Source: a phage
Strand: one strand, 5' to 3'
Sequence record: PZ166176.1
Length of the DNA stretch: 64,000 bases
The notes under the pieces are model-generated. The model searched no databases. It was not told the DNA's origin and was given only the letters and a program-made list of their open reading frames with translations. Of this stretch, positions 4,144 through 40,228 are shown piece after piece. Position numbers and translations under genes: made by a program. Each line of letters begins with the position of its first letter. Position 1 is the stretch's first letter.

Positions 4144-4153
4144 AAAAATATTC

Positions 4154-4214: not shown

Positions 4215-4235
4215 AAAACAAAAAAGGGTAACACA

Positions 4236-4598: not shown

Positions 4599-4604
4599 AA
4601 ACGG

Positions 4605-4664: not shown

Positions 4665-4668
4665 AACA

Positions 4669-5052: not shown

Positions 5053-5058
5053 AAAGCA

Positions 5059-5118
5059 TTGACAGCAGGAAGAAAAAGCGTAAAATGTTTTATATCGAGA
5101 GCGGGAATAGTTCCCGCC
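5059..5118 (+). promoter_or_regulatory. PeSL-like cassette
   Basis: TTGACA 5059-5064, taaaat -10, hairpin gcgggaatagttcccgc 5101-5117. Confidence 0.65.
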
Positions 5119-5141
5119 TCACTGAAAAAGAGAGAAAAATC

Positions 5142-5381
5142 ATGGCTAAATCTAAAATGTATAACGGTCACAAAAATAAAACTCACTGGAATGTAAGCCT
5201 TTGGATTAATAACGATGAATCATTATACCGTTTGGCCCAAGATTTTATTAACGCTAATGCTAATCGTAATGATGCGGCGCGGGATATGATGCTTTTTCTG
5301 GAACAAACTGGACAAGATAAAACGCCTGACGGTTTCAAATATAGCACTACTGCGATCCGCGCCGCGATGGTTGGAATGTAA
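5142..5381 (+). CDS. hypothetical early protein (79 aa)
   Basis: ATG 5142 with SD agagag; the track start at 5085 would read through the hairpin. Confidence 0.6.
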   Translation: MAKSKMYNGHKNKTHWNVSLWINNDESLYRLAQDFINANANRNDAARDMMLFLEQTGQDKTPDGFKYSTTAIRAAMVGM

Positions 5382-5390
5382 TAAAAACAG

Positions 5391-5450
5391 TTGACAACGT
5401 TTAAAATTAGTGTAAGATGTATCACATAGGGCGGGAAGTGGTTTCCCGCC
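5391..5450 (+). promoter_or_regulatory. PeSL-like cassette
   Basis: TTGACA 5391-5396, taagat -10, hairpin 5427-5450. Confidence 0.7.
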
Positions 5451-5472
5451 AACAACAGAGAGATTAAAGAGT

Positions 5473-5700
5473 ATGGCTATCAATATTGTTCGCGTATCCG
5501 GCACCGTTGGCACTTCCCAGGTTATTGCAGTTGTAACAAACAAAAAGATTAATGATGCATGTGAAAGCTTGAATAAGTGGGCTATTGCTAATTTTGGGGA
5601 ATATGCAAGCGTCGAGTACATCGAATCCTACCAGGTGCCAACCATCAGCCTAACCGATCTCAACGTTGATCGCCTGTTATGCCTGGATGAATTAATCTGA
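5473..5700 (+). CDS. hypothetical early protein (75 aa)
   Basis: ORF after cassette. Confidence 0.65.
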   Translation: MAINIVRVSGTVGTSQVIAVVTNKKINDACESLNKWAIANFGEYASVEYIESYQVPTISLTDLNVDRLLCLDELI

Positions 5701-5708
5701 AAAAGATT

Positions 5709-5767
5709 GTTGACACGGGAAAGAAAAAGAGTAAACTGTATTACGTAGGGCGGCAATGGTGCCGCTC
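5709..5767 (+). promoter_or_regulatory. PeSL-like cassette
   Basis: TTGACA 5709-5714, hairpin gtagggcggcaatggtgccgc. Confidence 0.7.
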
Positions 5768-5790
5768 ACAACAGAAGAGAGATTATTACG

Positions 5791-6003
5791 ATGGCTAATA
5801 TCCGCACACTGTTAAAAAATGCAAGTCAAGTTTTATTTTCAGATGACGAGTATTTCAATAAAGACATTACAGGCGTGAAGAATATCAAAGATGTAAAAAG
5901 TGTTATGGGTATATATTGCAATGTTAAACGTGTTGGAACGTTCGGTGATAAAGTATTGTACCAATCAGGTGATTACAATTTTACTTTGACGATTATTTCA
6001 TAA
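5791..6003 (+). CDS. hypothetical early protein (70 aa)
   Basis: ORF after cassette. Confidence 0.65.
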   Translation: MANIRTLLKNASQVLFSDDEYFNKDITGVKNIKDVKSVMGIYCNVKRVGTFGDKVLYQSGDYNFTLTIIS

Positions 6004-6007
6004 AACG

Positions 6008-6070
6008 CTTGCAATACTGCAAAAATAAAGTAAACTGTATTACATCAAGGCGGCGGAATGGTCCACCGCC
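6008..6070 (+). promoter_or_regulatory. PeSL-like cassette (variant -35 CTTGCA)
   Basis: hairpin aaggcggcggaatggtccaccgcc 6047-6070. Confidence 0.6.
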
Positions 6071-6094
6071 TAAGAAAGAGAAGAGGAAAATATC

Positions 6095-6262
6095 ATGATC
6101 ACTTTCGCTACCCGTGAAGCCGCTCGCAACGTTGCACGTAAAGTTAACGCCGCCAACCTGGGCGCTACTTTTAAAGCCCCGGTGAAAGATGAATCAGGCA
6201 AATGGATCTTCCCTGGTCTGCGTCACGCTGATAAGCTAGGCACTTTAAGCCTTAAAAAATAA
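6095..6262 (+). CDS. 55-aa basic small protein
   Basis: MITFATREAARNVARKVNAANLGATFKAPVKDESGKWIFPGLRHADKLGTLSLKK; SD aagagg; below the track cut-off. Confidence 0.5.
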   Translation: MITFATREAARNVARKVNAANLGATFKAPVKDESGKWIFPGLRHADKLGTLSLKK

Positions 6263-6264
6263 TC

Positions 6265-6303
6265 GTTGACTTTTCGTTATAGCGCCTTATAATGGGCGCT
6301 ATA
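6265..6303 (+). promoter_or_regulatory. promoter plus variant stem-loop
   Basis: TTGACT 6265-6270, hairpin tatagcgcc-ttataatg-ggcgctata. Confidence 0.5.
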
Positions 6304-6336
6304 GAGAAGAGAAACCACTACTAACAAGGAAACATC

Positions 6337-6558
6337 ATGATCACTTTCGCTATTGTCGCCGTTGTCGCTGGTCAAGTTTACGTAAATGAGACATTTACTA
6401 CAGAAGACAAGGCCGCAGGAGACATAACCGCCGTTTACAATGAGTGCAAGGCAGTAGAAAGGATGTTAGCGCCTTGTATGTTAATGAGTGAACGCCAGGA
6501 CGGGATAACAGTGTTTACTAACATTGAGACAGGGTACCAAATGGTAGTAACAAAATAA
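6337..6558 (+). CDS. hypothetical early protein (73 aa)
   Basis: ORF; shares N-terminal MITFA with the 6095 ORF. Confidence 0.6.
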   Translation: MITFAIVAVVAGQVYVNETFTTEDKAAGDITAVYNECKAVERMLAPCMLMSERQDGITVFTNIETGYQMVVTK

Positions 6559-6561
6559 AGC

Positions 6562-6619
6562 TTGACACGGATTTAATTTTCAGTAAACTGTTACACGTAG
6601 GGCGGGAATAGTTCCCGCT
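6562..6619 (+). promoter_or_regulatory. PeSL-like cassette
   Basis: TTGACA 6562-6567, hairpin gtagggcgggaatagttcccgc. Confidence 0.7.
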
Positions 6620-6636
6620 AAAAAGAGAGAAAGACC

Positions 6637-6990
6637 ATGAAAGCACAAAATGCAATTAAAGAGTACATCCTTGCCGCTATCGATTTTAATGATTACGGTA
6701 TTACAACCGAAAAAGAGAAGATCGCGGAATTGATGCGCCGTTTTAATTCCGAGTACTGGTACCCTGATAACCAATCACGTTTTAATTATAGTATTGTTAA
6801 AGCACTTGCATCATGGTTACAAGGTTTGCCATCAAATATCAATATCGCTTTCGAATATTGGGAAATTGATCGTTTGTTAACATCCTGGGGATACATTAAA
6901 GAGAATAGCAGCGATGATAAAATCCAACGAGAAAGGGAAAATTATTGGCTTTATATTGCAGGCGTGATCCTTGCTTGCTCTTATGAATGA
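6637..6990 (+). CDS. hypothetical early protein (117 aa)
   Basis: ORF after cassette. Confidence 0.65.
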   Translation: MKAQNAIKEYILAAIDFNDYGITTEKEKIAELMRRFNSEYWYPDNQSRFNYSIVKALASWLQGLPSNINIAFEYWEIDRLLTSWGYIKENSSDDKIQRERENYWLYIAGVILACSYE

Positions 6991-6996
6991 TAAACC

Positions 6997-7052
6997 TTGA
7001 CAATTTTACAAAACAGTTTAAATTAACAATATAGCGGCAATGGTGCCGCTCA
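6997..7052 (+). promoter_or_regulatory. PeSL-like cassette
   Basis: TTGACA 6997-7002, hairpin atagcggcaatggtgccgct. Confidence 0.65.
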
Positions 7053-7069
7053 TATGAAGAGGAAACAAA

Positions 7070-7216
7070 ATGAATACATCTAATCGCGCAGAAAAAATTC
7101 AATCTTCCAAGATCCGCAAGGCCTGGAACGAGGAAGTGATCCGCAAAGGCGACAAGCGCAATAAAACAAAGCGCGGGAAGAGTGACAAATATAATTGGAT
7201 GGATTTAGAGGATTAA
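7070..7216 (+). CDS. 48-aa lysine/arginine-rich small protein
   Basis: MNTSNRAEKIQSSKIRKAWNEEVIRKGDKRNKTKRGKSDKYNWMDLED; SD agaggaaac; followed by a terminator. Confidence 0.5.
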   Translation: MNTSNRAEKIQSSKIRKAWNEEVIRKGDKRNKTKRGKSDKYNWMDLED

Positions 7217-7223
7217 CATAACA

Positions 7224-7250
7224 AGGGCGCACCAAGCGCCCTTTCTTTTT
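7224..7250 (+). terminator. rho-independent terminator (GGGCGCACCAAGCGCCC family)
   Basis: agggcgcaccaagcgccct plus ttctttttt; the same hairpin recurs at 12701 and 13265. Confidence 0.7.
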
Positions 7251-7271
7251 ACATGTAGAGGATAAACAAAA

Positions 7272-7457
7272 ATGACTTTAAACGAGCTTAAAACAGCCTA
7301 CAGCACAACATTAAAAATAGCCGTGCGCTACCGTGACGAATACGGTTTTATTGCGCAGGGCGTGATCCTGGGCTTTTCTGACGATGGTTTGATCTATGTT
7401 GATGCACATCATAACAAGGTAAAACCTGAAAACGTCATTAGCATAAAATATCTTTAA
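7272..7457 (+). CDS. hypothetical early protein (61 aa)
   Basis: ORF with SD gaggat. Confidence 0.55.
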   Translation: MTLNELKTAYSTTLKIAVRYRDEYGFIAQGVILGFSDDGLIYVDAHHNKVKPENVISIKYL

Positions 7458-7463
7458 AAGTGG

Positions 7464-7523
7464 TTGACACCATAACTGGACCTGTTAAACTGTATTACAT
7501 CAGGCGGGGAATAGTTCTCCACC
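7464..7523 (+). promoter_or_regulatory. PeSL-like cassette (degenerate hairpin)
   Basis: TTGACA 7464-7469, hairpin caggcggggaatagttctccacc. Confidence 0.55.
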
Positions 7524-7542
7524 ATACAAAAAGGTAAATATT

Positions 7543-7749
7543 ATGATCACCGCAAAACAAGAGAAAATCATTATCGACGTTGCAGCCGTTGCCGCTATTG
7601 CTATTATTGGATCTTATTATGATACCCGTTTCCCGTCGGCTATGCATGAGGTCGCCGCCGTTGCATCAGTTGGCGTACTGTTTTACGTTGGTAAACGCTA
7701 TTTATCACCAATGATTAACAAGCTGACACCGTGGAAAAATAAAGGTTGA
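7543..7749 (+). CDS. hypothetical membrane protein (68 aa)
   Basis: Two hydrophobic stretches (AAVAAIAIIGSYY, AAVASVGVLFYVG). Confidence 0.6.
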   Translation: MITAKQEKIIIDVAAVAAIAIIGSYYDTRFPSAMHEVAAVASVGVLFYVGKRYLSPMINKLTPWKNKG

Positions 7750-7800
7750 TCCTGTTTTATATTGTGTTATAGTTATCGTGTAGGGCGGCAATGGTGCCGT
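7746..7800 (+). promoter_or_regulatory. PeSL-like cassette (variant -35 TTGATC)
   Basis: hairpin gtagggcggcaatggtgccg 7779-7800. Confidence 0.55.
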
Positions 7801-7820
7801 GCCCCTTTGAGGATGCAATC

Positions 7821-8105
7821 ATGAGTAAAGCTAACACCGTGCTAATGTTTTCCCTGATTAATGATCTCGCTTACTTGTCCAACATGACGCAGGAGGGTAA
7901 CACATTAACGGCAACATTCACCAATAAGCTTGACCGAGTGATCATCATCTCACTGAAAACAGTTAGTAAAGGCTTTTACTCGTTAGCTTATCATTGGATC
8001 ACCGATACCAATGAGACAAGCCAGGACTATAGCGCCCCTTTCCCTGAATCAATGGCACGGGAGATCATCGCCGCCGTTGTAAATGATGGTTTGTTTACTG
8101 AATAA
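7821..8105 (+). CDS. hypothetical early protein (94 aa)
   Basis: ATG 7821 with SD gaggatg; the track start at 7791 lies inside the hairpin. Confidence 0.6.
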   Translation: MSKANTVLMFSLINDLAYLSNMTQEGNTLTATFTNKLDRVIIISLKTVSKGFYSLAYHWITDTNETSQDYSAPFPESMAREIIAAVVNDGLFTE

Positions 8106-8123
8106 AATAATTTAGAAAAAGGC

Positions 8124-8180
8124 TTGCAATCATTTTGAGATAGTGTATATTTAATTCATAGGGCGGCGGGAATAGTTCCC
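8124..8180 (+). promoter_or_regulatory. PeSL-like cassette
   Basis: -35 TTGCAA, hairpin catagggcggcgggaatagttccc. Confidence 0.6.
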
Positions 8181-8203
8181 AAAGCAAACGAGAGGATTAC
8201 ACG

Positions 8204-8323
8204 ATGAGCAAGTACACAGTAGAATACACGGTAGAAAATCCGGCAGTATCCGAAGGTAAAAAGATGACATTTGCCATCAGTATAATCGCTTTCGTTGTCA
8301 CTATCTTATCAATCATGTTATAA
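8204..8323 (+). CDS. 39-aa micro-protein with C-terminal transmembrane helix
   Basis: MSKYTVEYTVENPAVSEGKKMTFAISIIAFVVTILSIML; SD agagga. Confidence 0.45.
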   Translation: MSKYTVEYTVENPAVSEGKKMTFAISIIAFVVTILSIML

Positions 8324-8333
8324 GGTGCACACC

Positions 8334-8495
8334 ATGAAAACAACAGACATTATCAAAGAGATCGCCCTTGCCGCTGGCGTTGAAGTCGAGGAAGTGATCG
8401 CGCTCAATCTTACAGAAAAAGATCTGCGCAACTATGAAGCGGAAAGCGTGAAAGCAAGCGGCGCGGTCCTGGTATATGATCCGGCTAACAAGTAA
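8334..8495 (+). CDS. hypothetical early protein (53 aa)
   Basis: ATG 8334 (MKTTDIIKEIAL...) after SD aaggtg; the track start at 8295 overlaps the upstream micro-ORF. Confidence 0.5.
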   Translation: MKTTDIIKEIALAAGVEVEEVIALNLTEKDLRNYEAESVKASGAVLVYDPANK

Positions 8496-8504
8496 GGGGA
8501 TAAC

Positions 8505-8615
8505 ATGAATCCGAAAGATATGCAAGCATGGAAAGGGTACGACGATCTAAGCGCCTTGCGCAATAAGTCAAGCCGTAACCTTAGACGGTTGGAAGCAAAG
8601 AAAAAGAAAAAATAG
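8505..8615 (+). CDS. 36-aa basic small protein
   Basis: MNPKDMQAWKGYDDLSALRNKSSRNLRRLEAKKKKK; SD aagggga. Confidence 0.4.
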   Translation: MNPKDMQAWKGYDDLSALRNKSSRNLRRLEAKKKKK

Positions 8616-8675
8616 TTTGACAAGTCCGCCTAGTCTGATAATATGTATCTTGTAGGGCGGCAATGGTGCCGCTCA
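8616..8675 (+). promoter_or_regulatory. PeSL-like cassette
   Basis: TTGACA 8616-8621, hairpin tgtagggcggcaatggtgccgctc. Confidence 0.7.
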
Positions 8676-8693
8676 CAAGAAGAGAGAAAAATC

Positions 8694-8978
8694 ATGAAAA
8701 TCACAAAAAGCCTAACTAATTATGCAGCACGTCGCGGATTATGTTTAACCGTTGAAAACTTAGGGAAAGAAGACTTTTTGTGTTTTTGGGAGCTTGAAAA
8801 TGATTGCGAGTGGATGTTTTCTTATTCTATCTGCGAAGATCAAAACGGTTGTTTGTTAACCTGGCGCGGTAATATCTATTTACCGGAAGAAATTAAAGAA
8901 GAGTTACCAGGTACGATCATGACAGAGAGACAGCTTAAGGAAATGATTAATTTTGTAGGGCAAAACATTAAAAAATAA
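8694..8978 (+). CDS. hypothetical early protein (94 aa)
   Basis: ATG 8694 with SD agagag; the track start at 8643 reads through the hairpin. Confidence 0.6.
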   Translation: MKITKSLTNYAARRGLCLTVENLGKEDFLCFWELENDCEWMFSYSICEDQNGCLLTWRGNIYLPEEIKEELPGTIMTERQLKEMINFVGQNIKK

Positions 8979-9040
8979 TTTGACAGCACGCAAACAACGT
9001 AGTAAAGTTTACCACATAGGGCGGCGGAATGGTCCACCGC
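8979..9040 (+). promoter_or_regulatory. PeSL-like cassette
   Basis: TTGACA 8979-8984, hairpin identical to the 2751 copy. Confidence 0.7.
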
Positions 9041-9063
9041 TCACAACAGAAGAGAAACAAATC

Positions 9064-9234
9064 ATGATCCCGACTATGTTTTATGTATCGCGCAAAGGTC
9101 ACAATATTTTTTGGTCTGAAGATTTAAACGAAGCTATGACGTTTGCCCGTGATCGTGTTGCTATCGGTGGCGTTAACATCACCGTAACCGATGAAAACGG
9201 CATTGAATACTATAACGGCGACGATGAAGAGTAA
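9064..9234 (+). CDS. hypothetical early protein (56 aa)
   Basis: ATG 9064 (MIPTMFYVSRKG...) with SD agagaaac. Confidence 0.55.
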   Translation: MIPTMFYVSRKGHNIFWSEDLNEAMTFARDRVAIGGVNITVTDENGIEYYNGDDEE

Positions 9235-9240
9235 TTAATG

Positions 9241-9263
9241 AGGCGGGGAGTATTCCCCGCCGT
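9241..9263 (+). other. stand-alone GC stem-loop with no promoter upstream
   Basis: gaggcggggagtattccccgccg immediately before the SD of ORF 9281. Confidence 0.5.
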
Positions 9264-9280
9264 CAATAAAGAGGTAAATC

Positions 9281-9550
9281 ATGAAAATATCATTGGACGT
9301 TGCAATCAAGGCCATCGAATCCGGTTACATCCTGGTAAAAGATGATAAGGCTAAAATAGTGCATCATGTTAACAAGGAAACAGGCGAAAGCATGATCACA
9401 TATAAAGCCGCCTATTTTCTCCAATCAGTAGCAGATCCGCGCGTACAACGCCAGGTTACGGCGGCTATTGCTAAAAAATTGTGTTCCTTGCAGGGTGCAA
9501 GTTTTAACGAGATCCCGCCGTGTTTTGAGTGGTCAAGCTTGAAAAAATAA
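9281..9550 (+). CDS. hypothetical early protein (89 aa)
   Basis: ORF with SD agaggt. Confidence 0.65.
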   Translation: MKISLDVAIKAIESGYILVKDDKAKIVHHVNKETGESMITYKAAYFLQSVADPRVQRQVTAAIAKKLCSLQGASFNEIPPCFEWSSLKK

Positions 9551-9551
9551 T

Positions 9552-9613
9552 TTGACAACAATTATAAATCGGGTAGAATGTATTTCGTAGGGCGGGGCAA
9601 TAAGGCAACGCCC
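9552..9613 (+). promoter_or_regulatory. PeSL-like cassette
   Basis: TTGACA 9552-9557, hairpin tagggcggggcaataaggcaacgccc. Confidence 0.65.
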
Positions 9614-9631
9614 ATTAATGAGGGTAGAATC

Positions 9632-9736
9632 ATGTTAGAGAAAATTTTCACGGTTGTAATAGTGGGCCTGGCGTTATCGGTTGGAGTGGTTGCAACTATG
9701 GCTAACATGATCCTATCTTCCCACGGTATCGGTTAA
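9632..9736 (+). CDS. 34-aa hydrophobic micro-protein
   Basis: MLEKIFTVVIVGLALSVGVVATMANMILSSHGIG; SD gagggtag. Confidence 0.45.
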   Translation: MLEKIFTVVIVGLALSVGVVATMANMILSSHGIG

Positions 9737-9737
9737 G

Positions 9738-9962
9738 GTGAAACAAATGATCACGAACAAAACAGGCAAAACGGAATTTTTACGCGGCTTACAAGTTGGT
9801 AAGCCTGAGATCTGGCATTGCACGAAGTCCGCGCATAATGAAATGAAAGATTTTACCGCTACTTTACAACGTGTTAAAATATCTATCACACAGAAAAAAG
9901 CCTTGTTAGTAGTAGAAAACGAGATCCCGCAAACTATTATTATTGTCGAGCGTACAGCATGA
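9738..9962 (+). CDS. hypothetical early protein (74 aa)
   Basis: ORF with SD aaggtgaaac. Confidence 0.6.
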   Translation: MKQMITNKTGKTEFLRGLQVGKPEIWHCTKSAHNEMKDFTATLQRVKISITQKKALLVVENEIPQTIIIVERTA

Positions 9963-10345
9963 AAACAGAAATCATTATTGAAATCATCAACGGCTATAAA
10001 GAAGCCTTTATTTTTGCTGAATCAGCAAGGGATCATGAAGGTAATTTTATTGATAACTTAGACGATTATGATTTTTCTCCTAGCGCAGATCAACGGATCG
10101 CCCAGGATGTAACAGCCTTTATTAATGCTAATCTTGCCGCTATCTCTGAGGCAATGAGCGACGGCGCAACAGCCAACCAGATCGGGAATGATTTACATTT
10201 TACCCGTAACGGTCACGGCGTAGGCTTTTGGGATCGCCCTGAAATATACACCACTAACACAGCCAACCGCCTAACCAATGCAGCTAAGTTTATGCCGAAC
10301 GTGTCGGCTTACATTGGTGAAGATAATTTGATTTATATTGAATAA
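9959..10345 (+). CDS. hypothetical early protein (128 aa)
   Basis: Start overlaps the upstream stop (ATGA coupling). Confidence 0.65.
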   Translation: MKTEIIIEIINGYKEAFIFAESARDHEGNFIDNLDDYDFSPSADQRIAQDVTAFINANLAAISEAMSDGATANQIGNDLHFTRNGHGVGFWDRPEIYTTNTANRLTNAAKFMPNVSAYIGEDNLIYIE

Positions 10346-10351
10346 AAAGTA

Positions 10352-10410
10352 TTGACACAGATCGCCAGTGTGCTAATATTTACCACGTAGGGCGGCAATG
10401 GTGCCGCTCC
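10352..10410 (+). promoter_or_regulatory. PeSL-like cassette
   Basis: TTGACA 10352-10357, -10 taatat, hairpin gtagggcggcaatggtgccgctc. Confidence 0.7.
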
Positions 10411-10428
10411 CCGAAAAAGGTAAACATT

Positions 10429-10620
10429 ATGAAAACCATCTCCTACCTGGAATCGAATAACATGTTTTTTGCGCCCGTTGATGAAATCATCGAAGCATTA
10501 AACAACGAGGAAGGGATCAAAGGTTTATCTTATAGCCAACTTTTAGGAATGGTTGCAGCAAATGAAGAGCTTGCTTACTATGTTGAAAATTTTGATGAAG
10601 CTGTAATCTTTACAAAATAA
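10429..10620 (+). CDS. hypothetical early protein (63 aa)
   Basis: ORF after cassette. Confidence 0.65.
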   Translation: MKTISYLESNNMFFAPVDEIIEALNNEEGIKGLSYSQLLGMVAANEELAYYVENFDEAVIFTK

Positions 10621-10622
10621 TC

Positions 10623-10680
10623 CTTGATCTAATCTCTTAGATAACTTATATTTAATGCGTAGGGCGGCAATGGTGCCGCC
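10623..10680 (+). promoter_or_regulatory. PeSL-like cassette (variant -35 CTTGAT)
   Basis: hairpin gtagggcggcaatggtgccgcc. Confidence 0.55.
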
Positions 10681-10698
10681 GATAATGAGGAAAGTAAA

Positions 10699-10998
10699 AT
10701 GGAAACTATCGCTATTATTACCGTAGAAAAACTGGTTGTTGGTGATGTATTCGCGTTAATGGTGCCTAACAGTAGCAAGCTGGGCGCTTATGAAGTGATG
10801 GATCATAAAAATGAATCATTTGGCGACGGTTGCACAATGGCGGTAAAATCTTTAAAGGATGGAATCATCCGTCAAGCTAATTGGCACAAAGGAAATCAAG
10901 TCGGATTAATATCAGCTAATTTCTTGCCAGAAGAGCAAACGTTAGACCAACTATCAGGCGGTAAGACGTTAGCCGAACTACTGGAAACAGCGATCTAA
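10699..10998 (+). CDS. hypothetical early protein (99 aa)
   Basis: ORF with SD gaggaaag. Confidence 0.65.
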   Translation: METIAIITVEKLVVGDVFALMVPNSSKLGAYEVMDHKNESFGDGCTMAVKSLKDGIIRQANWHKGNQVGLISANFLPEEQTLDQLSGGKTLAELLETAI

Positions 10999-11042
10999 TC
11001 AACAAAGGGGCGGCAACGCCCCACATCAGAAAGGAAAAGATT

Positions 11043-11279
11043 ATGAGTATTGCAACAGTATTAACCGCCGTTAAAACCGCTGAATCATCCGGCTTGCATG
11101 TTGAGCTTATAGATCAACCAGGTGGCGATCTCCTTGTCCAGGTTTACCCGCCGAAAGTAGGGGATGATCATTATTGGTGCTATTCCGATACGTTCGAACA
11201 AGTAGACACGAAAGCGATCACGGCTTTTATTTTAAAAGCTATTGAAGAAAATAATTTTCATTATAACATCAATCAATAA
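11043..11279 (+). CDS. hypothetical early protein (78 aa)
   Basis: ORF; preceded by a promoter-less hairpin ggggcggcaacgcccc. Confidence 0.6.
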   Translation: MSIATVLTAVKTAESSGLHVELIDQPGGDLLVQVYPPKVGDDHYWCYSDTFEQVDTKAITAFILKAIEENNFHYNINQ

Positions 11280-11334
11280 ACCATAAGCGCGGCGGTAACG
11301 CCCCATTAAACGCAATAGGAAGAGGCTAGAAAGC

Positions 11335-11619
11335 ATGAAAAAGATGATCGCAGTAGTTGCCCTGGTTGTTGGTATTAACGCGCCTGTAATGGCGAAAGAG
11401 TTGCCAGAATCCATCACGTTAACCGATATTAACGCAGTGAACCGGATCGGCGTTAATTATCGCCTATGCCTTGCCGCTAAAACTTTCCAGGACGGCACAA
11501 CAGAGTACTACGGATTCGAGGGTATCCGCTGCGGTGAGCTTGCACGCGACCTTAAGGAAGATCCAGACCTTGAGGCCATACCGATGACCGTAAACGGTAA
11601 AGCTTACGTAAGCCGCTAA
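11335..11619 (+). CDS. secreted small protein with predicted signal peptide (94 aa)
   Basis: N-terminus MKKMIAVVALVVGINAPVMA is signal-peptide-like; SD aggaagagg. Confidence 0.6.
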   Translation: MKKMIAVVALVVGINAPVMAKELPESITLTDINAVNRIGVNYRLCLAAKTFQDGTTEYYGFEGIRCGELARDLKEDPDLEAIPMTVNGKAYVSR

Positions 11620-11621
11620 CC

Positions 11622-11756
11622 ATGAGAAAGGTAATCATCACAATGGGGATCGTAGTAGCAACGCTGGCGCTTATCCCTTTCATGGTTGAACATGTGCTGA
11701 TTAATGTTGTCCTGGTAGTCAGTGACCTATTGGAAACGGTTGGCAACTGGTTTTAA
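11622..11756 (+). CDS. 44-aa hydrophobic micro-protein
   Basis: MRKVIITMGIVVATLALIPFMVEHVLINVVLVVSDLLETVGNWF; followed by a terminator. Confidence 0.45.
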   Translation: MRKVIITMGIVVATLALIPFMVEHVLINVVLVVSDLLETVGNWF

Positions 11757-11765
11757 GATAAATAA

Positions 11766-11793
11766 ACAGGGCTTGTTTTTGTCCTGTTTTTTG
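11766..11793 (+). terminator. rho-independent terminator
   Basis: acagggcttgtttttgtcctgt plus tttttt. Confidence 0.7.
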
Positions 11794-11932
11794 TTATACT
11801 TATTGAACGGGCGGCACCTGGGAGCAGGGGGAAGATAATCACCGGACGACCCCGCTATATATTGATAGCTAACATCTATCAAACAACAAAACATCAAAGA
11901 GATAAACTATCAAATCTTTACAATCCTACCTA

Positions 11933-11991
11933 TTGACACCGGATCACGCTTACATTATCATTTATCACGTAGGGCGGGAATGTTTCCCGCC
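11933..11991 (+). promoter_or_regulatory. PeSL-like cassette
   Basis: TTGACA 11933-11938, hairpin gtagggcgggaatgtttcccgcc. Confidence 0.7.
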
Positions 11992-12009
11992 TGATTTAGG
12001 AGTTATATC

Positions 12010-12243
12010 ATGATCGAACAAATTAAAAGCACTAAACCAAATGTTAACGGTAATGTTTCTCACTTTATCGGGGATAATGAAAGAGGTACACCGTACGCCG
12101 CCGTAACCGTTCAACCGAACGGGGATTATTGGTTTACCGTGTACGGATCTTACTCTTTTGGACGTTCGGCACATGATAAGATCTTGCAAGTGGTTAAGCC
12201 TACTGGGAAGAATATCACAGCAGAAAAATTTTATAAAAAATAG
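12010..12243 (+). CDS. hypothetical early protein (77 aa)
   Basis: ORF after cassette, SD ttaggag. Confidence 0.65.
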   Translation: MIEQIKSTKPNVNGNVSHFIGDNERGTPYAAVTVQPNGDYWFTVYGSYSFGRSAHDKILQVVKPTGKNITAEKFYKK

Positions 12244-12303
12244 CTTGCTTTATTTCTCCTGTTAACTTATAGTTATTGCGTAGGGCGAGCAATACAGCAA
12301 GCC
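12244..12303 (+). promoter_or_regulatory. PeSL-like cassette (variant)
   Basis: -35 CTTGCT, hairpin gtagggcgagcaatacagcaagccc. Confidence 0.5.
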
Positions 12304-12321
12304 CACAAAGAGGAAAAGAAG

Positions 12322-12690
12322 ATGAGCAAATCAGCAATTAAAGCACTTGAAAAAGCACAAGAAGTGATCGCAACGTCAACCACTGGCGCAAAGGTTAATC
12401 TCGTTGGTTATCTGGCAGATGAAACTATCCGTAAAAATTGGCGTAATGCTGATTTACTGGCTTGCTTATTGATTAATAGTGTCGCTAATGCTTTCCAGTG
12501 TGAAACAGCCGAGAGCCTGGAGGAAAACTTGTTTGATAATATGGATCAAGCCATTGAAACCTATATACAGTCAAACCTGGATAGCTGGAACAGTAAAACA
12601 TGGCCCGACAATTTACGCGATACAACTGATCAACTGATCCGCCTTGCCGTGATGGTTGAACGCGATAACGTTTACAACAGCACAAAGTAA
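12322..12690 (+). CDS. hypothetical early protein (122 aa)
   Basis: ORF with SD agaggaaaag. Confidence 0.65.
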   Translation: MSKSAIKALEKAQEVIATSTTGAKVNLVGYLADETIRKNWRNADLLACLLINSVANAFQCETAESLEENLFDNMDQAIETYIQSNLDSWNSKTWPDNLRDTTDQLIRLAVMVERDNVYNSTK

Positions 12691-12700
12691 GATTATACAA

Positions 12701-12722
12701 GGGCGCACCAAGCGCCCTTTAA
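12701..12722 (+). terminator. terminator hairpin (GGGCGCACCAAGCGCCC family)
   Basis: gggcgcaccaagcgccc plus ttt; weak T tract. Confidence 0.55.
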
Positions 12723-12747
12723 CGTAAAGAAATGTAAATAATGCGCT

Positions 12748-12782
12748 ATCCCCTATTGACAGGGGATCGGCGTTATATTATA
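12748..12782 (+). promoter_or_regulatory. promoter with -35 hexamer inside a hairpin loop
   Basis: atcccctaTTGACAggggat with -10 tatatt downstream. Confidence 0.45.
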
Positions 12783-12829
12783 TTTAACTCACTGGCAGCA
12801 AACAACAAAACGAAACAAAGGATAACACT

Positions 12830-13249: not shown

Positions 13250-13264
13250 TTGACAACAAAACAA

Positions 13265-13291
13265 GGGGCGCACCAAGCGCCCTTTCTTTTT
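13265..13291 (+). terminator. rho-independent terminator (GGGCGCACCAAGCGCCC family)
   Basis: gggcgcaccaagcgccc plus tttcttttt. Confidence 0.7.
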
Positions 13292-13498
13292 GCCCGAACA
13301 ATGTTGATAGCTTTCGCCTATGAAAAACCGACACAGAACAAAATTGAATAAATCGCGGTATCGAGCTAATCAACCATTAAACGAATAACCATACCTCCCA
13401 GGGTAACAGGCTGTTAGAGAGCCATTTATAGCGGTTAAAATCGATCAACAACCAACAACAAACCATCAAAAACACCCTTTTACCTCCTTTCTAGTGCA

Positions 13499-13516
13499 AT
13501 GATAACCATTATCATC
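13499..13516. promoter_or_regulatory. Fur-box-like palindrome
   Basis: aatgataaccattatcat. Confidence 0.4.
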
Positions 13517-14056
13517 TATCCATGTTTATCTATGCAATATAAGTGCATAACTATAATGTTGATAATAGTTCGCAACAACTAACTAACCAACAACCTAAAA
13601 CAATAAGCAAACTAATCATAATCAAAGGAATAATAGCAAGATGATTGATAACGACAAACAATCAAACCATGATGAATACTAAGCAAGATAACGATAACAC
13701 GACAAAACAACCAACTAACGAACAATAACAAACGAAACCATTAAAATAATAACTATTGCCATAATAGTGACTGAATGAAATCATTACAAAACGAATCATT
13801 CCCAGGATCATCATTAGCACGCTATGCCGGACACATAGCGAGCTAATAATAAGCCAACTACACCCCAACAATCATAACCATCGGTGATGGTTATTTCTTG
13901 TTACTGCGTAGCTTGCAATGATTGCAAGCGTAATGACGCTTACACTCATTGCGCTGGCTTATTATTAGCATTATATGTAATTACCAAGATCATAACATTA
14001 GCGCAATAACAATAATCATTGTAATGGTTACAATATGAAATCATTAGCATGGCAAT

Positions 14057-14212
14057 AATTATTGGGGGCAATGGGAGGATGATTATCATCATTCCGATAC
14101 ATTGCACACTATGCACATAATAGAATAAAAGTCAATAATTTTGGGGGCGAATACTATCGCGTAGCGATATGTTGAGCACTAAGAAAAGAGATAAACCTTA
14201 ATCATGGGGGCG
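14057..14212. repeat. three direct repeats of a TGGGGGC core
   Basis: attattgggggcaatggg (14057), aattttgggggcgaatac (14135), aatcatgggggcgtaaat (14198); a second direct repeat ATGTTGAGCA at 14165 and 14248. Confidence 0.5.
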
Positions 14213-14330
14213 TAAATATCCGAGGATTGCCAACGGCGATCCGGTAGGATGTTGAGCATCTTCTCTTAAACGTAAATAAAATCAGAAAATTCTTGATTTA
14301 TTATGGTTTTTATGTTAATAAATGTTTAAA

Positions 14331-14349
14331 TAATAATCATTCTCATATG
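14331..14349. promoter_or_regulatory. Fur-box-like palindrome
   Basis: taataatcattctcatatg. Confidence 0.4.
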
Positions 14350-14420
14350 AATAATAGTCTGCTTGTCATGAGCGGGATTAATTGACATTGTTCCGTCATA
14401 TGATGAAGTTGCCAAGCCAT

Positions 14421-14451
14421 TGATAAATAAGTGTTTGTGTGATTTATAATC
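14421..14451 (+). promoter_or_regulatory. sigma70-like promoter (TTGATA-N18-TATAAT)
   Basis: ttgataaataagtgtttgtgtgatttataat; candidate promoter for the block starting at 14868. Confidence 0.4.
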
Positions 14452-14507
14452 AAGTGGCCCACCTTGTCGCTATGTTGGCATGAGCCTTGCATAAGTCATT
14501 GAATACG

Positions 14508-14526
14508 AATGATAATTATTCTCATT
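14508..14526. promoter_or_regulatory. Fur-box-like palindrome
   Basis: aatgataattattctcatt, about 55 nt downstream of the candidate promoter. Confidence 0.45.
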
Positions 14527-14867
14527 CGCATGATATTTGGGAATTGTCGCTGCGTGGACCTGACGGCCCGAAAATTCGCGTTAAGCACTTCTTACGTATG
14601 CGCCATGATTTTTGCCATATCATATTGATTCTATTAGATATTCTTGCCGTGATTGCCATGAAACAGGGTGTCCCGAAATAATCTCTCCCCGTAGATATTT
14701 TGGGTTACTTTTTATACAAGAGTGGGGTGTCAAAAATAATCGGTATATATGGGATAATTGATAGGGAATACCAATGATAAATGAATTGTAATTGTCGAGG
14801 ATTGATCGTAGGATGTTGGTGATTGATGATTGCCATGAAAGATGGCTAACGATGAGAGGAGATTATC

Positions 14868-15242
14868 ATGCAAGAGAGTAAAAATGTTCCGTTGAGTAGT
14901 GCAACATTGCTTCGCTTCTATAAAGCATGGATTGCTAACTACCCTGCAATGAATCGCACAACGAGTGGCTTATGTGGTTGTCTGGTAGATTATGTAGATG
15001 ATTTTGTTGGTGAGACAACTAGAGAAGAAGATAGAAGATGGCGGGATAGTTTGTTAGACCGTTTGAAATATGAAATGAGGAAACAATTTACATGTGCAGG
15101 GCTGGACTACAATCTTCCGTTCAATGCAGATTGCATGGATTACCTTTCAGAGTGTATAAACTTGGCGTGTCATACCAACACGTTACGTCTTCAATGGGTG
15201 AAAGATCGTATTGAAGATGCAAATAATGCTTGCATTGAATAA
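14868..15242 (+). CDS. member A of a five-copy paralogous early family (GLC...PF...WVK motif)
   Basis: 124 aa; FYKAWI...GLCGCL...LPFN...RLQWVKD; paralogs at 18770, 22108, 24953, 26258. Confidence 0.7.
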   Translation: MQESKNVPLSSATLLRFYKAWIANYPAMNRTTSGLCGCLVDYVDDFVGETTREEDRRWRDSLLDRLKYEMRKQFTCAGLDYNLPFNADCMDYLSECINLACHTNTLRLQWVKDRIEDANNACIE

Positions 15243-23589: not shown

Positions 23590-23802
23590 ATGAAGGCACA
23601 TTACCCTCATCCCTTTGATCCTAAAAACAAAGCCGTAATTCTTCGTCAGTGGCAACGGGTTTGTCGTACTAAATGTCCAATCAATAGCCCACACAATGTA
23701 AACAAGGACTATCTTGGGACATTTGTTGAATACACTTACATAGACAAAAACAAGCGTAAACAACATGTCGAGGAATACTGCTTAAGAGTAGAATGGCTGT
23801 AA
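23590..23802 (+). CDS. hypothetical early protein (70 aa)
   Basis: Overlap-coupled ORF. Confidence 0.6.
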   Translation: MKAHYPHPFDPKNKAVILRQWQRVCRTKCPINSPHNVNKDYLGTFVEYTYIDKNKRKQHVEEYCLRVEWL

Positions 23803-23814
23803 ATAATAAATACC

Positions 23815-23845
23815 TTGACAAGTGTTTATTCGTTTTGTAAAGTGA
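23815..23845 (+). promoter_or_regulatory. sigma70-like promoter upstream of the recombinase gene
   Basis: ttgacaagtgtttattcgttttgtaaagt. Confidence 0.45.
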
Positions 23846-23872
23846 GAATACAGCAATAGTTTAGGAGTGGTT

Positions 23873-24544
23873 ATGAAAAAGTTTGTTGTTTACAGTCGTC
23901 TTTCTAAACAGAAAAAAGGTGAGGCACAATATGGTATGGAGAGCCAAGAGAACGATATTCGTTACTTCTTAGACTCTGTGCCTGATGCTGAAGTTATTGG
24001 TCAATTTTCTGAATACTATTCGGGTAAGGGCGATTGGAAGCAACGTAAGGAACTGGTCAAAGCGGTTGAAATGTGTAAAGCTACCGGAGCAACTTTATTG
24101 GTAGCTAAAGTTGACCGCTTGGGTCGTAACAACGCCTCCGTAGCAACTCTTCTAGAAATGATCGATGTTAAGATAGCCATTATGCCAGACGCAGATAAAA
24201 TGGTTATACAGCTTCTGTCTGTTCTGGCTGAACAAGAAGTTAGAGGTATTGCTGATCGTATTAAAAAGGGTCTTGCTGTAGCAAAAAGCAAAGGTGTTTT
24301 ATTAGGTAGTGCTAATCCTAAAACTGCCGCTGCACGTAGAAAAGGAAAAATGGAATACAACTCTGTTAAAGCAGACGCTTTTGCAGAGACATTCCGTGAA
24401 CGTTTGGAGATCCTTAGAGATTTAAATACACCTTACAAAACTATTGCTGAAAAATTCAATAGTAAGAAAATAGCAACAGCACGTGGTGGTAAATGGGATG
24501 CTAAAACTGTTTCTCGTTTGTGTGCCAGACTTAACATTAAATAG
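23873..24544 (+). CDS. serine recombinase (resolvase/invertase catalytic domain)
   Basis: VYSRLSKQ (catalytic Ser region), LLVAKVDRLGRN, LLSVLAEQEVRGIADRIKKGLAVAKSKG resemble the Gin/Hin/TnpR catalytic domain; C-terminal GGKWDAKTVSRL resembles the recombinase domain of large serine recombinases. Confidence 0.75.
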   Translation: MKKFVVYSRLSKQKKGEAQYGMESQENDIRYFLDSVPDAEVIGQFSEYYSGKGDWKQRKELVKAVEMCKATGATLLVAKVDRLGRNNASVATLLEMIDVKIAIMPDADKMVIQLLSVLAEQEVRGIADRIKKGLAVAKSKGVLLGSANPKTAAARRKGKMEYNSVKADAFAETFRERLEILRDLNTPYKTIAEKFNSKKIATARGGKWDAKTVSRLCARLNIK

Positions 24545-30710: not shown

Positions 30711-30733
30711 AACCCGCTTCGGCGGGTTTTTTC
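30711..30733 (+). terminator. rho-independent terminator
   Basis: aacccgcttcggcgggtt plus tttttc. Confidence 0.75.
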
Positions 30734-35421: not shown

Positions 35422-35474
35422 AGTTTATCAAGCTTCCAGATTCCTGTCAATAAAAAACCCGCCGAAGCGGGTTA
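35422..35474 (-). promoter_or_regulatory. minus-strand terminator plus promoter unit
   Basis: Minus strand: aacccgcttcggcgggtt plus ttttttatt, then TTGACA-N17-TAAACT. Confidence 0.55.
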
Positions 35475-39788: not shown

Positions 39789-39979
39789 TCTACCAAAGAG
39801 AATTCCGCCTCTTCCAGGTAGATTACAGACCTTGTTGCATGATATTTAACGCTCCAGAAATTACCTTCGCGCCGTAAAAGTATCTCATTCACATCAAGAT
39901 TGCTTAGAAAAACCATATAACTTAAAGCTTGTTGACGCGTTGAGAATTGTTTCTCTAAAAGTTCTTCTCCGCTCTGCAT
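39785..39979 (-). CDS. hypothetical protein (64 aa)
   Basis: ORF. Confidence 0.55.
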   Translation of the reverse strand: MQSGEELLEKQFSTRQQALSYMVFLSNLDVNEILLRREGNFWSVKYHATRSVIYLEEAEFSLVE

Positions 39980-40024
39980 AATCCCTCCTTAAAATACTCC
40001 CTCCGAAAAGGGAGTATAAGTATA

Positions 40025-40228
40025 TCACGTAGTTGTTATGTTGTCTTCTTGGATACTAGAATCCACTTCTGCAAACATATCTTCTGCACTGTAATTATTT
40101 CCAGTCCAGCGTGATAAAAGGATAGCACCAATCTCTTTTGCATGAGATTCGGACTCTGCATAAACGTTAGTCCCAGTGTCACCTTTTTTCTTTTCATGTG
40201 CATAAATGCAGTAATAATTGTAAGCCAT
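40025..40228 (-). CDS. hypothetical protein (67 aa)
   Basis: ORF. Confidence 0.55.
   Translation of the reverse strand: MAYNYYCIYAHEKKKGDTGTNVYAESESHAKEIGAILLSRWTGNNYSAEDMFAEVDSSIQEDNITTT

What the first reader, a model, noticed from the sequence alone, without database searches (positions are those of the whole stretch)
23815..24544. Serine recombinase with its own promoter inside the early gene block
The ORF has the resolvase/invertase catalytic domain (Ser-containing YSRLS block, KVDRLGR, the E-helix region) plus a C-terminal segment resembling the recombinase domain of larger serine recombinases. Site-specific recombinases are unexpected in the middle of a lytic phage early region. Possibilities are a DNA invertase controlling a switchable segment elsewhere, a resolvase acting on replication concatemers, or the remnant of a mobile element. 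A consensus-like promoter precedes it, unlike its operon-coupled neighbours.
Basis: partly seen in the sequence, partly recalled or inferred. Interest (0 to 1): 0.55.

Follow-up and report, generated by a model that had tools for sequence, protein, structure and literature searches.

The report
Orphan serine recombinase of virulent coliphage
A real, strongly conserved and probably active DNA-rearranging enzyme (a serine recombinase) with its own promoter sits among the early genes of a phAPEC8-like lytic E. coli phage; the gene is already annotated in dozens of public genomes, does not look like a tail-fibre switch, and its DNA target is still unknown.

Summary
ATG 23873 to stop 24544 (+) encodes a 223-aa serine recombinase (Pfam Resolvase E 5e-18). 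All catalytic residues are intact, and a sigma-70-like promoter lies at 23815-23843. The window is a Phapecoctavirus (phAPEC8-like). The protein is 99.6-100% identical in 63 of 65 GenBank records, where it is variously called DNA invertase, resolvase or hypothetical. All nucleotide differences seen are synonymous, so it is not a decaying remnant. Its C-terminus is not the resolvase/invertase HTH. It resembles the first helices of the 'recombinase domain' of large serine integrases, but weakly.

Relatives occur throughout Stephanstirmvirinae, in 128-137-kb Vibrio phages, in some ICP1 isolates and in many prophages, nearly always behind their own TTGACA promoter. In phi92 the gene lies in a PhoH–HslV–methylase…DprA block. 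The window keeps that block but has an empty site there, so the promoter-gene unit has moved.

I found no inverted repeats beyond terminators and no inversion polymorphism across about 60 genomes. The tail-fibre invertase idea is therefore not supported. Homologues carry a single dyad site over their own promoter, which favours a self-regulated, single-site (resolvase or Cre-like) role. In this phage the site is not established. Interest is modest.

The parts
23815..23843 (+). Sigma-70-type promoter: TTGACA, 17-nt spacer, TAAAGT
   Evidence: scores it 10 of 12. No base from -70 to -29 relative to the ATG varies among 11 haplotypes, although 36 synonymous sites vary in the ORF. A TTGACA promoter at the same distance precedes nearly all homologues.
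23805..23830 (.). Candidate recombinase-binding dyad AATAAATA-N10-TGTTTATT, overlapping the -35 hexamer. This is a hypothesis only.
   Evidence: It has the 26-bp, 12+2+12 architecture, but it is not significant against shuffles (z 0.49). It is unique in the 149-kb composite genome and is not conserved in the 75%-identical relative L008.
23863..23867 (+). Ribosome-binding site AGGAG, 5 nt before the ATG
   Evidence: Read directly from the sequence.
23873..24544 (+). Serine recombinase gene, 223 aa plus stop
   Evidence: It is 100% identical to proteins in many GenBank Phapecoctavirus records. The exact protein occurs in 884 blocks of public assemblies.
23885..24298 (+). Catalytic domain plus E-helix (residues 5-142), with Y7, R9, S11 (nucleophile), E47, R58, D81, R82, R85, E120 and E122
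   Evidence: Pfam. These residues are invariant in a 34-sequence family alignment. A profile alignment to gamma-delta resolvase is offset by +1. The AF2 model has pLDDT 88.6 and Foldseek hits Sin, gamma-delta, TP901-1 and Bxb1.
24317..24529 (+). Four-helix C-terminal DNA-binding domain (residues about 149-219), with the motif IAxxFNxxxIATARGGKWxAKTVSRL
   Evidence: PF07508 hit and no HTH_7 hit. Helices 149-172, 175-183, 188-197 and 210-219 appear in the model. The isolated domain's best PDB matches are the Bxb1 recombinase domain, but E is about 0.8.
39979..40037 (-). Empty ancestral site: the intergenic hairpin between the homologues of phi92 gp054 and gp052, where phi92 carries promoter plus recombinase
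   Evidence: tblastn synteny of phi92 gp061-gp045 with window 43974-36474, and the junction sequences.

Best explanation
This is a functional, separately transcribed early gene for a catalytically competent serine recombinase of an uncharacterised short clade. The clade combines a resolvase-type catalytic domain and E-helix with a truncated 'recombinase-domain' helix bundle, in place of the HTH_7 of resolvases and invertases.

Shown: the fold, the intact active site, purifying selection, the conserved private promoter, and vertical retention across Stephanstirmvirinae with one relocation of the promoter-gene unit.

Inferred: a dimer binds one dyad-symmetric site that overlaps its own promoter, as the homologues' sites do. 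Binding there represses its own transcription. Two copies of the site, on sister or concatemeric genome copies or in a terminal redundancy, are synapsed by a tetramer. Ser11 then makes staggered double-strand breaks, and subunit rotation exchanges the strands. The outcome is resolution or cyclisation of replicating phage DNA, like a resolvase or like P1 Cre/loxP, and not inversion. The function is accessory, not essential.
For: Identity and activity: Pfam and PHROG hits. The residues equivalent to Y6, R8, S10, R68 and R71 are invariant, and D36 is conservatively E47; these six are the crucial residues in Tn3 resolvase (PMC2794168).

Selection: 12 of 12 differences against DE16, and 36 of 36 segregating ORF sites, are synonymous, and the promoter is invariant. 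Flanking proteins vary by 90-99%.

Family habit: nearly every homologue has a TTGACA promoter at about -55. Dyads over that promoter are enriched; 26% of loci reach p<=0.05 against shuffles. Examples are a 32-bp palindrome over the -10 in Vibrio phages, single-copy per genome, and a 44-bp site in another subgroup. In alphaproteobacterial prophages, CACAACG-WW-CGTTGACA occurs at -110 to -20 in 21 of 80 loci, with only one other copy in 1.37 Mb of flanks. That core equals the Mpi invertase crossover repeat ARACGTTCGTN (PMC8375218).

Those prophages also carry a tyrosine integrase, so the short recombinase is not their integrase. In some it abuts putative terminase genes, as cre/loxP does near pac in P1 (from memory).

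One site per genome fits resolution or cyclisation, not inversion.
Against: In this phage itself no convincing site exists. The dyad at 23805-23830 is at chance level and is not conserved in close relatives. The alphaproteobacterial core is absent from the window.

Phages that package from concatemers have no obvious need for multimer resolution. The genome ends of this phage group were not determined here.

The dyad enrichment used mononucleotide shuffles on partly related loci, and promoter dyads may be operators only.

One isolate (Schickermooser) has six indels that frameshift the gene. If those indels are real, the function is dispensable in culture.
Confidence: 0.35

Rival explanations
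1. It acts in trans on non-phage DNA, such as the host chromosome, a resident prophage, or the att sites of a phage satellite. In this reading it is an offensive or counter-defence tool in genome conflict, or a factor that satellites exploit.
For: No cognate site was found in the phage. The gene is early and host-RNAP-transcribed. Mpi-type relatives act on many remote sites. Stephanstirmvirinae phages, including the Phapecoctavirus Mt1B1_P17, are inferred helpers of a family of E. coli satellites, some of which carry a serine recombinase (PMC10055350). In ICP1 the homologue lies where the annotated genes carry no earlier gp number, flanked by the genes formerly called GP30 and GP41. ICP1 is known to manipulate a satellite's serine recombinase, although through an unrelated protein (PMC9638900).
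Against: This is purely circumstantial. No target sequence is known. There is no DNA homologue in 5,426 E. coli genomes. There is no PADLOC hit. Retention of the gene across phages of Escherichia, Klebsiella, Citrobacter and Vibrio argues for a phage-internal substrate.
Confidence: 0.2
2. It is a selfish or 'moron'-like promoter-gene cassette, or the relic of a mobile element, that persists without benefit to the phage.
For: The promoter-gene unit occupies different loci in Phapecoctavirus and Justusliebigvirus, and a clean empty site remains. It always travels with its own promoter. One isolate carries a frameshifted copy.
Against: Purifying selection is strict. There is exactly one copy, at a fixed position, in every genome of each genus. 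The unit has no terminal repeats or spare flanking DNA: the stop codon abuts the next gene's ribosome-binding site. The ancestral neighbourhood is conserved out to Vibrio phages.
Confidence: 0.12
3. It works mainly as a DNA-binding repressor or regulator, at its own and perhaps other early promoters, and recombination is vestigial.
For: Dyads overlap the promoter in many homologues. Resolvases are known autorepressors (established knowledge for Tn3/gamma-delta).
Against: The whole catalytic constellation is invariant down to about 30% identity, which would not be needed for DNA binding alone.
Confidence: 0.1
4. It is a DNA invertase that flips a segment elsewhere in the genome, for example tail fibres or a promoter.
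For: PHROG 125 and several GenBank records call it 'DNA invertase'. The best profile hits in the PDB are Gin (E 6e-18). There is a weak match to Mpi.
Against: The 149-kb composite genome has no inverted repeat above chance length other than terminators. The promoter dyad has no second copy. The tail-fibre/structural 37 kb shows a single colinear place in each of about 60 genomes. Of 65 genomes, 60-61 are colinear over two further 25-kb blocks. The gene is not adjacent to any candidate segment, and its immediate context is invariant in assemblies. There is no HTH_7 domain.
Confidence: 0.06

Closest known systems
Tn3 / gamma-delta resolvase, and Sin and beta recombinases
   Same: The catalytic domain and E-helix are shared; the PDB profile search gives E about 1e-16. 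All crucial catalytic residues are present. The gene is preceded by its own promoter, and in homologues a dyad site overlaps that promoter, as res overlaps the tnpR promoter.
   Different: There is no HTH_7 DNA-binding domain. No three-subsite res was detected. It is not on a transposon or plasmid. NCBIfam scores are far below every family cut-off.
Gin / Hin / Cin phage and flagellar DNA invertases
   Same: They give the best profile match to solved structures (Gin, E 6e-18). Both are phage-borne and about 200 aa long.
   Different: There is no flanking invertible segment and no paired inverted sites. The gene is far from the tail fibres. The C-terminal domain is different. Dependence on a Fis enhancer was not testable.
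Mpi master invertase of Bacteroides
   Same: It is a short serine recombinase. The site core of the alphaproteobacterial homologues (AACG-WW-CGTT) equals the Mpi repeat.
   Different: The score is 22.6 bits against a 272-bit cut-off. The motif occurs once in the window, which is the chance level.
Large serine integrases (Bxb1, phiC31, TP901-1)
   Same: The C-terminal motif IAxxLNxxGxxTxRGxxW and its helices match the start of their recombinase domain. The top whole-model Foldseek hit is Bxb1.
   Different: It lacks the remainder of the recombinase domain, the zinc ribbon and the coiled coil, being 223 aa against 450-600 aa. The host phage is virulent. Related prophages use a tyrosine integrase instead.
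P1 Cre/loxP (functional analogy only)
   Same: The proposed job is the same: a single-site recombinase that cyclises or monomerises phage genomes. Some homologues lie next to packaging genes.
   Different: The enzyme family is unrelated (tyrosine recombinase). No lox-like site was identified here.

Membership tests
Serine recombinase superfamily (Pfam PF00239) | Resolvase-type catalytic domain above the curated threshold | tested here: met
   66 bits against a 23.3-bit cut-off, E 5.2e-18, residues 5-142. All 34 of 34 family members hit.
Serine recombinase superfamily (Pfam PF00239) | The six residues crucial in Tn3 resolvase (Y6, R8, S10, D36, R68, R71; PMC2794168) | tested here: met
   Y7, R9, S11, R82 and R85 are invariant, and D36 aligns with E47, an acidic residue (E or D) in every row.
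Serine recombinase superfamily (Pfam PF00239) | Long E-helix after the catalytic core | tested here: met
   Helix 109-139 in the AF2 model at pLDDT about 90. It aligns with the E-helix of the resolvases.
Small resolvase/invertase subfamily | C-terminal HTH_7 (PF02796) DNA-binding domain | tested here: not met
   No HTH_7 hit in any of the 34 members; PF07508 or HTH_62 hit instead.
Small resolvase/invertase subfamily (resolvases) | Multi-subsite res next to the gene | tested here: inconclusive
   There are only 70 nt upstream, with one weak 26-bp dyad. Homologues have one clear dyad.
Small resolvase/invertase subfamily (invertases) | Two inverted crossover sites flanking an invertible segment, seen in both orientations | tested here: not met
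   No such repeats. No inversion polymorphism among about 60 genomes.
Small resolvase/invertase subfamily (invertases) | Fis-dependent enhancer | not testable with these tools
   This needs biochemistry.
Large serine recombinases | Complete recombinase domain, zinc-ribbon domain and coiled coil | tested here: not met
   Only model positions 19-48 of 102 of PF07508 match, below threshold. The protein ends at residue 223, and the isolated C-terminus matches the Bxb1 recombinase domain at E about 0.8.
Large serine recombinases | attP x attB integration into a host site | not testable with these tools
   No attP-like site was identified. The phage group is treated as virulent in the papers read.
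Mpi family (NCBIfam NF009949) | Score above the curated cut-off | tested here: not met
   22.6 bits against 272.
IS607-like serine transposases | N-terminal MerR-like HTH before a C-terminal catalytic domain | tested here: not met
   The catalytic domain starts at residue 5.

The most novel reading that the evidence does not exclude
The recombinase is not a housekeeping resolvase. Instead it is a player in phage-satellite or phage-host genome conflict. In this reading, an early-expressed enzyme of Stephanstirmvirinae (and of some ICP1 lineages) recombines or cleaves attachment or other specific sites on E. coli satellites, prophages or the chromosome. Alternatively, satellites may exploit it for their own excision.
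Probability: 0.08. Interest if true: 0.75.

Novelty: new member of a known kind. Interest (0 to 1): 0.3.

Why it matters
Site-specific recombinases in strictly virulent phages are routinely flagged as 'lysogeny-like' genes in safety screens for phage therapy. One paper simply guesses that this one handles concatemers.

The evidence here is that the gene is an ancient, selected component of a whole phage subfamily, that it is not an integrase in its temperate relatives, and that it does not drive tail-fibre switching. That helps interpret such screens.

It also defines a compact, uncharacterised clade of serine recombinases of about 220 aa. For some members the cognate sites of 32-44 bp can be read directly upstream of the gene. 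Those members would be easy to test, and they are of possible use as small recombinase tools.

The biological role in lytic infection remains an open but tractable question.

Tried and rejected
1. I searched for inverted and direct repeats in the window and in a 149-kb composite genome. Only terminator hairpins, promoter/stem-loop cassettes and chance 17-mers turned up.
2. I looked for a second copy of the promoter dyad and found none.
3. I searched for the Mpi-type core ARACGTWCGT or AACGNNCGTT. There is one chance-level hit in the window and one in the composite genome.
4. I screened related GenBank genomes for inversions and found none. Small inversions inside two of the 25-kb blocks cannot be excluded, because only summary counts were read for those.
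5. I looked for alternative junctions next to the gene in public assemblies. The flanking genes are the same in all 10 places returned.
6. I compared the upstream region across genera. Only the promoter hexamers and a TAGTGCATACT box in Justusliebigvirus-like phages are conserved.
7. I looked for an 'empty site' for the Phapecoctavirus insertion. The downstream neighbour exists only in the same 65 genomes.
8. Rfam on 12.5-25.5 kb gave nothing. PADLOC gave nothing relevant. PHROGs classed all ten neighbouring proteins as unknown function.
9. ICP1 Adi turned out to be an unrelated 147-aa protein.
10. The idea that the Vibrio homologues sit in T5-like terminal repeats was dropped. The phage has rIIA/rIIB and the same PhoH-protease module.
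11. There is no DNA homologue in E. coli genomes.
12. The coordinates of the satellite in CP057957 could not be retrieved, so its serine recombinase was not compared.

Full report
WHAT IS THERE. The finding's coordinates run from the -35 hexamer of a promoter-like site to the stop codon of an ORF. The promoter-like site is TTGACA-17 nt-TAAAGT at 23815-23843. An AGGAG ribosome-binding site lies at 23863-23867. The ORF runs from ATG 23873 to 24544 on the + strand and encodes 223 aa. This is the same start that GenBank annotators use for phage DE16.

The protein matches Pfam Resolvase (E 5.2e-18, residues 5-142) and PHROG 125 'DNA invertase' (E 2.6e-32).

The window is a Phapecoctavirus (phAPEC8-like, Stephanstirmvirinae). 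Sixty-five GenBank records match the 2.5 kb around the gene at 95% identity or better.

IS IT AN ACTIVE ENZYME? In an alignment of 34 family members, reaching down to about 30% identity, these residues are invariant: Y7, R9, S11, Q25, R58, D81, R82 and R85. Alignment to Tn3 and gamma-delta resolvase equates them with Y6, R8, S10, R45, D67, R68 and R71. D36 aligns with E47, an acidic residue in every row. Y6, R8, S10, D36, R68 and R71 are the six residues crucial for catalysis in Tn3 resolvase (PMC2794168).

The AlphaFold model is confident (pLDDT 88.6). It shows the expected beta/alpha core and a long E-helix at residues 109-139. Foldseek retrieves the catalytic domains of Sin, gamma-delta resolvase and TP901-1, and Bxb1 integrase.

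THE C-TERMINUS. No family member has the HTH_7 domain of resolvases and invertases. Instead, 20 of 34 hit PF07508 'Recombinase' (best E 5.9e-6) and two hit HTH_62. The window protein itself is sub-threshold for PF07508, with E 0.003 and 18.2 bits against a 21.1-bit cut-off.

The motif IAxxLNxxGxxTARGxxW is the hallmark start of the recombinase domain of large serine integrases (domain knowledge). Modelled alone, the 82-residue C-terminus has pLDDT 79.6. Its best PDB matches are all the Bxb1 recombinase domain, but they are not significant, at E about 0.8.

NCBIfam places the protein in no curated family. YneB scores 32 bits against 175, XisF 27 against 375 and Mpi 22.6 against 272. So it is a serine recombinase, but neither a canonical small resolvase/invertase nor a large serine recombinase.

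SELECTION. The protein is at least 99% identical in 63 of the 65 Phapecoctavirus records, and 100% identical in most of those listed. The gene immediately downstream varies between 90 and 99%.

Against phage DE16 the ORF has 12 nucleotide differences, all synonymous. The neighbouring genes carry amino-acid changes.

Among 12 sequences (11 haplotypes) there are 36 segregating sites in the ORF, all silent. Ten of these sequences were retrieved by exact protein identity, so only part of this count is independent. In the same sequences, no position from -70 to -29 upstream varies.

One isolate, Schickermooser, has six small deletions totalling 19 nt in the 5' half, which break the reading frame. 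If these are not sequencing errors, the gene is dispensable in culture.

EVOLUTIONARY CONTEXT. Homologues occur in:
- phi92 and other Justusliebigvirus phages, at 57% identity; phi92 gp053 is annotated 'DNA invertase';
- Klebsiella and Citrobacter members of the subfamily, at 55-67%;
- Vibrio phages of 128-137 kb, at 35-39%;
- some ICP1 isolates, at 30%;
- a few Bacteroidales phages.

In phi92 the gene lies in the block lysozyme–PhoH–gp059–HslV–gp057–Dam methylase–gp055–gp054–[recombinase]–gp052–HisRS-like–gp050–NinI–gp048–DprA-like. The window contains the whole block on its minus strand at 43974-36474, but without the recombinase. Between the gp054 and gp052 homologues (39979-40037) there is only a hairpin.

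The gp054-recombinase adjacency, or proximity to the DprA-like gene, recurs in more distant contigs (L015, L016 and L017). A Vibrio phage has PhoH–protease…rIIA–rIIB–recombinase. The block position therefore appears ancestral. The lineage of Phapecoctavirus, Citrobacter Tr1 and L008 moved the promoter-gene unit into the early block.

All ten neighbouring proteins in the window are of unknown function.

THE PROMOTER. A private promoter is a family trait, not a peculiarity of this copy. Nearly every homologue examined has TTGACA about 55 nt before the ATG. This holds in phages of enterobacteria and Vibrio, in ICP1 and in prophages.

In the window, the immediate neighbours are translationally coupled. 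However, the genes starting at 22489 and 22956 also have strong promoters.

TESTS OF THE INVERTASE IDEA. I built a composite genome from the window plus bases 61841-146912 of the close relative PV191315. Self-comparison gave no inverted repeat longer than 17 nt except terminator hairpins. Seventeen-mers are expected by chance at this genome size.

The 12-kb tail-fibre block and the adjoining 25-kb structural block each map as one colinear place in every one of the about 60 Phapecoctavirus genomes listed. The uncovered 8-12% is absent or replaced sequence, not a second, inverted place.

Two further 25-kb blocks are colinear over at least 80% of their length in 60-61 of the 65 genomes.

The exact protein is on record in 884 blocks of public assemblies. 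In the ten distinct contexts returned, the flanking genes are always the same.

I therefore consider a tail-fibre or other large invertible switch not supported.

WHERE MIGHT IT ACT? Evidence comes from the homologues. Dyad-symmetric elements over the homologues' promoters are more frequent than in shuffled sequence. Twenty-six per cent of 83 loci reach p<=0.05, with a mean z of 1.1. The loci are partly related and the shuffles preserve only mononucleotide content, so this is indicative only.

Clear cases are:
- AACCCAGTGAC-N10-GTTACTGGGTT over the -10 in two Vibrio phage contigs. It is single-copy in each genome and, curiously, present in opposite orientation in the two.
- ATACAAA-N6-TAACG-NN-CGTTA-N6-TTTGTAT directly upstream in four contigs, again single-copy in the DNA held.
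- CACAACG-WW-CGTTGACA in alphaproteobacterial chromosomes. The strict core lies at -110 to -20 in 21 of 80 loci. There is only one other copy in 1.37 Mb of flanking DNA, against four in shuffles.

This core, AACG-WW-CGTT, is the repeat at which the Bacteroides serine invertase Mpi recombines (ARACGTTCGTN; PMC8375218). It therefore looks like a genuine crossover site and not merely an operator. The '-35' TTGACA is part of it.

These bacterial loci are prophages that carry a tyrosine integrase; Pfam Phage_integrase matches with E 1e-11 to 2e-15. The site next to the short recombinase is intact in the integrated state. So the short recombinase is not the integrase.

In a minority of loci it lies next to putative terminase genes, though the Pfam hits for these are weak.

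One intact site per genome, overlapping the promoter, is the arrangement of autoregulated resolvases. It would also suit a Cre/loxP-like cyclisation function.

THE WINDOW'S OWN SITE. The best candidate is the 26-bp imperfect palindrome AATAAATA-N10-TGTTTATT (23805-23830) across the -35 hexamer. It is not significant (z 0.49). It is unique in the composite genome and is not conserved in the 75%-identical relative L008.

The invariance of this stretch among haplotypes may reflect the promoter alone. The substrate in this phage is therefore unknown.

ALTERNATIVES. A role on host, prophage or satellite DNA cannot be excluded. Stephanstirmvirinae phages, including the Phapecoctavirus Mt1B1_P17, are inferred helpers of a family of E. 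coli satellites (PMC10055350). The ICP1 homologue lies where the annotated genes carry no earlier gp number, between the genes formerly called GP30 and GP41. But nothing links the enzyme to these elements. No DNA homologue exists in 5,426 E. coli genomes, and the characterised ICP1 factor Adi is unrelated.

A purely selfish cassette is hard to reconcile with the selection pattern and the fixed single copy.

A regulator without catalysis is hard to reconcile with the invariant active site.

WHAT IS KNOWN. The gene is already annotated in GenBank as DNA invertase, resolvase, serine recombinase, recombinase family protein, or, wrongly, 'methionine ABC transporter ATP-binding protein'. The only comment found in the literature is a guess that it keeps concatemers as single genomes (PMC10282059). 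[quoted passage not shown]

VERDICT. The feature is real and ordinary in kind: an uncharacterised member of the serine recombinases, with a non-canonical short DNA-binding domain. It is mildly interesting because the gene is conserved in strictly virulent phages and its substrate is unknown.

Noticed in passing
window 13250-14870: About 1.6 kb has no ORF of 60 aa or more, between a terminator hairpin and the first gene of the second + strand block. The strand composition is strongly skewed. There are at least 4 copies of an 18-nt palindrome, AATGATAAnCATTATCAT, that resembles the E. coli Fur box (from memory), plus spaced TGGGGGC repeats and several other perfect palindromes. Many GenBank records of related phages start near window 14255. 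Rfam finds nothing.
   Followed up: partly
window 2300-12800 (+): There are about 20 near-identical regulatory cassettes, roughly one per small gene. Each has TTGACA-16/17-TAnnnT, then a GC stem-loop (CAC(A/G)TAGGGCGGC…GCCGCTCA), then the ribosome-binding site. They are reminiscent of the mobile 'promoter-early stem-loop' cassettes of T4-type phages (from memory).
   Followed up: partly
window 39979-40037 (-): This is the empty site where phi92 carries promoter plus recombinase. It holds a hairpin, ATACTCCCT-TTTCGG-AGGGAGTAT. The ribosome-binding site and start that follow (AAGGAGGGATTATG) resemble the phi92 recombinase's own RBS/start more than that of gp052.
   Followed up: partly
L092 (phage Schickermooser, MK373788) 1200-1470: The recombinase gene carries six deletions (1, 1, 7, 1, 2 and 7 nt) within about 200 bp, while the flanks are nearly identical. 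Only a 128-aa 3' fragment is annotated. This is either a pseudogene or a sequencing artefact.
   Followed up: partly
L016 about 2948-2979 and L017 about 2950-2981 (two Vibrio phage contigs): A 32-bp palindrome over the -10 of the recombinase promoter is present as exact reverse complements in the two genomes, so the small hairpin element has flipped. Both orientations give a -10-like hexamer. There is one copy per genome.
   Followed up: partly
L106-L185 (alphaproteobacterial chromosomes), -110 to -20 from the recombinase start: The site GTAACA…CACAACG-WW-CGTTGACA…TTTGCAAC is highly conserved upstream of the ~220-aa recombinase in prophages that also encode a tyrosine integrase. Its core equals the Mpi invertase repeat. 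This is a ready-made test system for the family.
   Followed up: partly
window 30711-30732 and 35452-35473: An identical 22-nt terminator hairpin, AACCCGCTTCGGCGGGTTTTTT, occurs in opposite orientations near the boundary between the + and - strand gene blocks. A third copy lies elsewhere in the composite genome.
   Followed up: no
GenBank records OR062524, OR062526, MT496970/NC_052662, OR352956 and others: The recombinase ORF is annotated 'methionine ABC transporter ATP-binding protein' in OR062524, OR062526 and NC_052662. The same name, or 'putative ABC transporter ATP-binding protein', appears among the features of the 2.5-kb region in further records such as OR352956. This is an evident mis-annotation that has been propagated between records.
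   Followed up: no
L103 10669-11484 (metagenome variant of the same phage): A SIR2-domain gene and other minus-strand genes replace the small + strand ORFs found about 4 kb downstream of the recombinase in other genomes.
   Followed up: no
window 23590-23802: The 70-aa protein just upstream of the recombinase belongs to Pfam DUF7202 (PF23832) according to precomputed hits. It is not homologous to the upstream neighbour in phi92.
   Followed up: no
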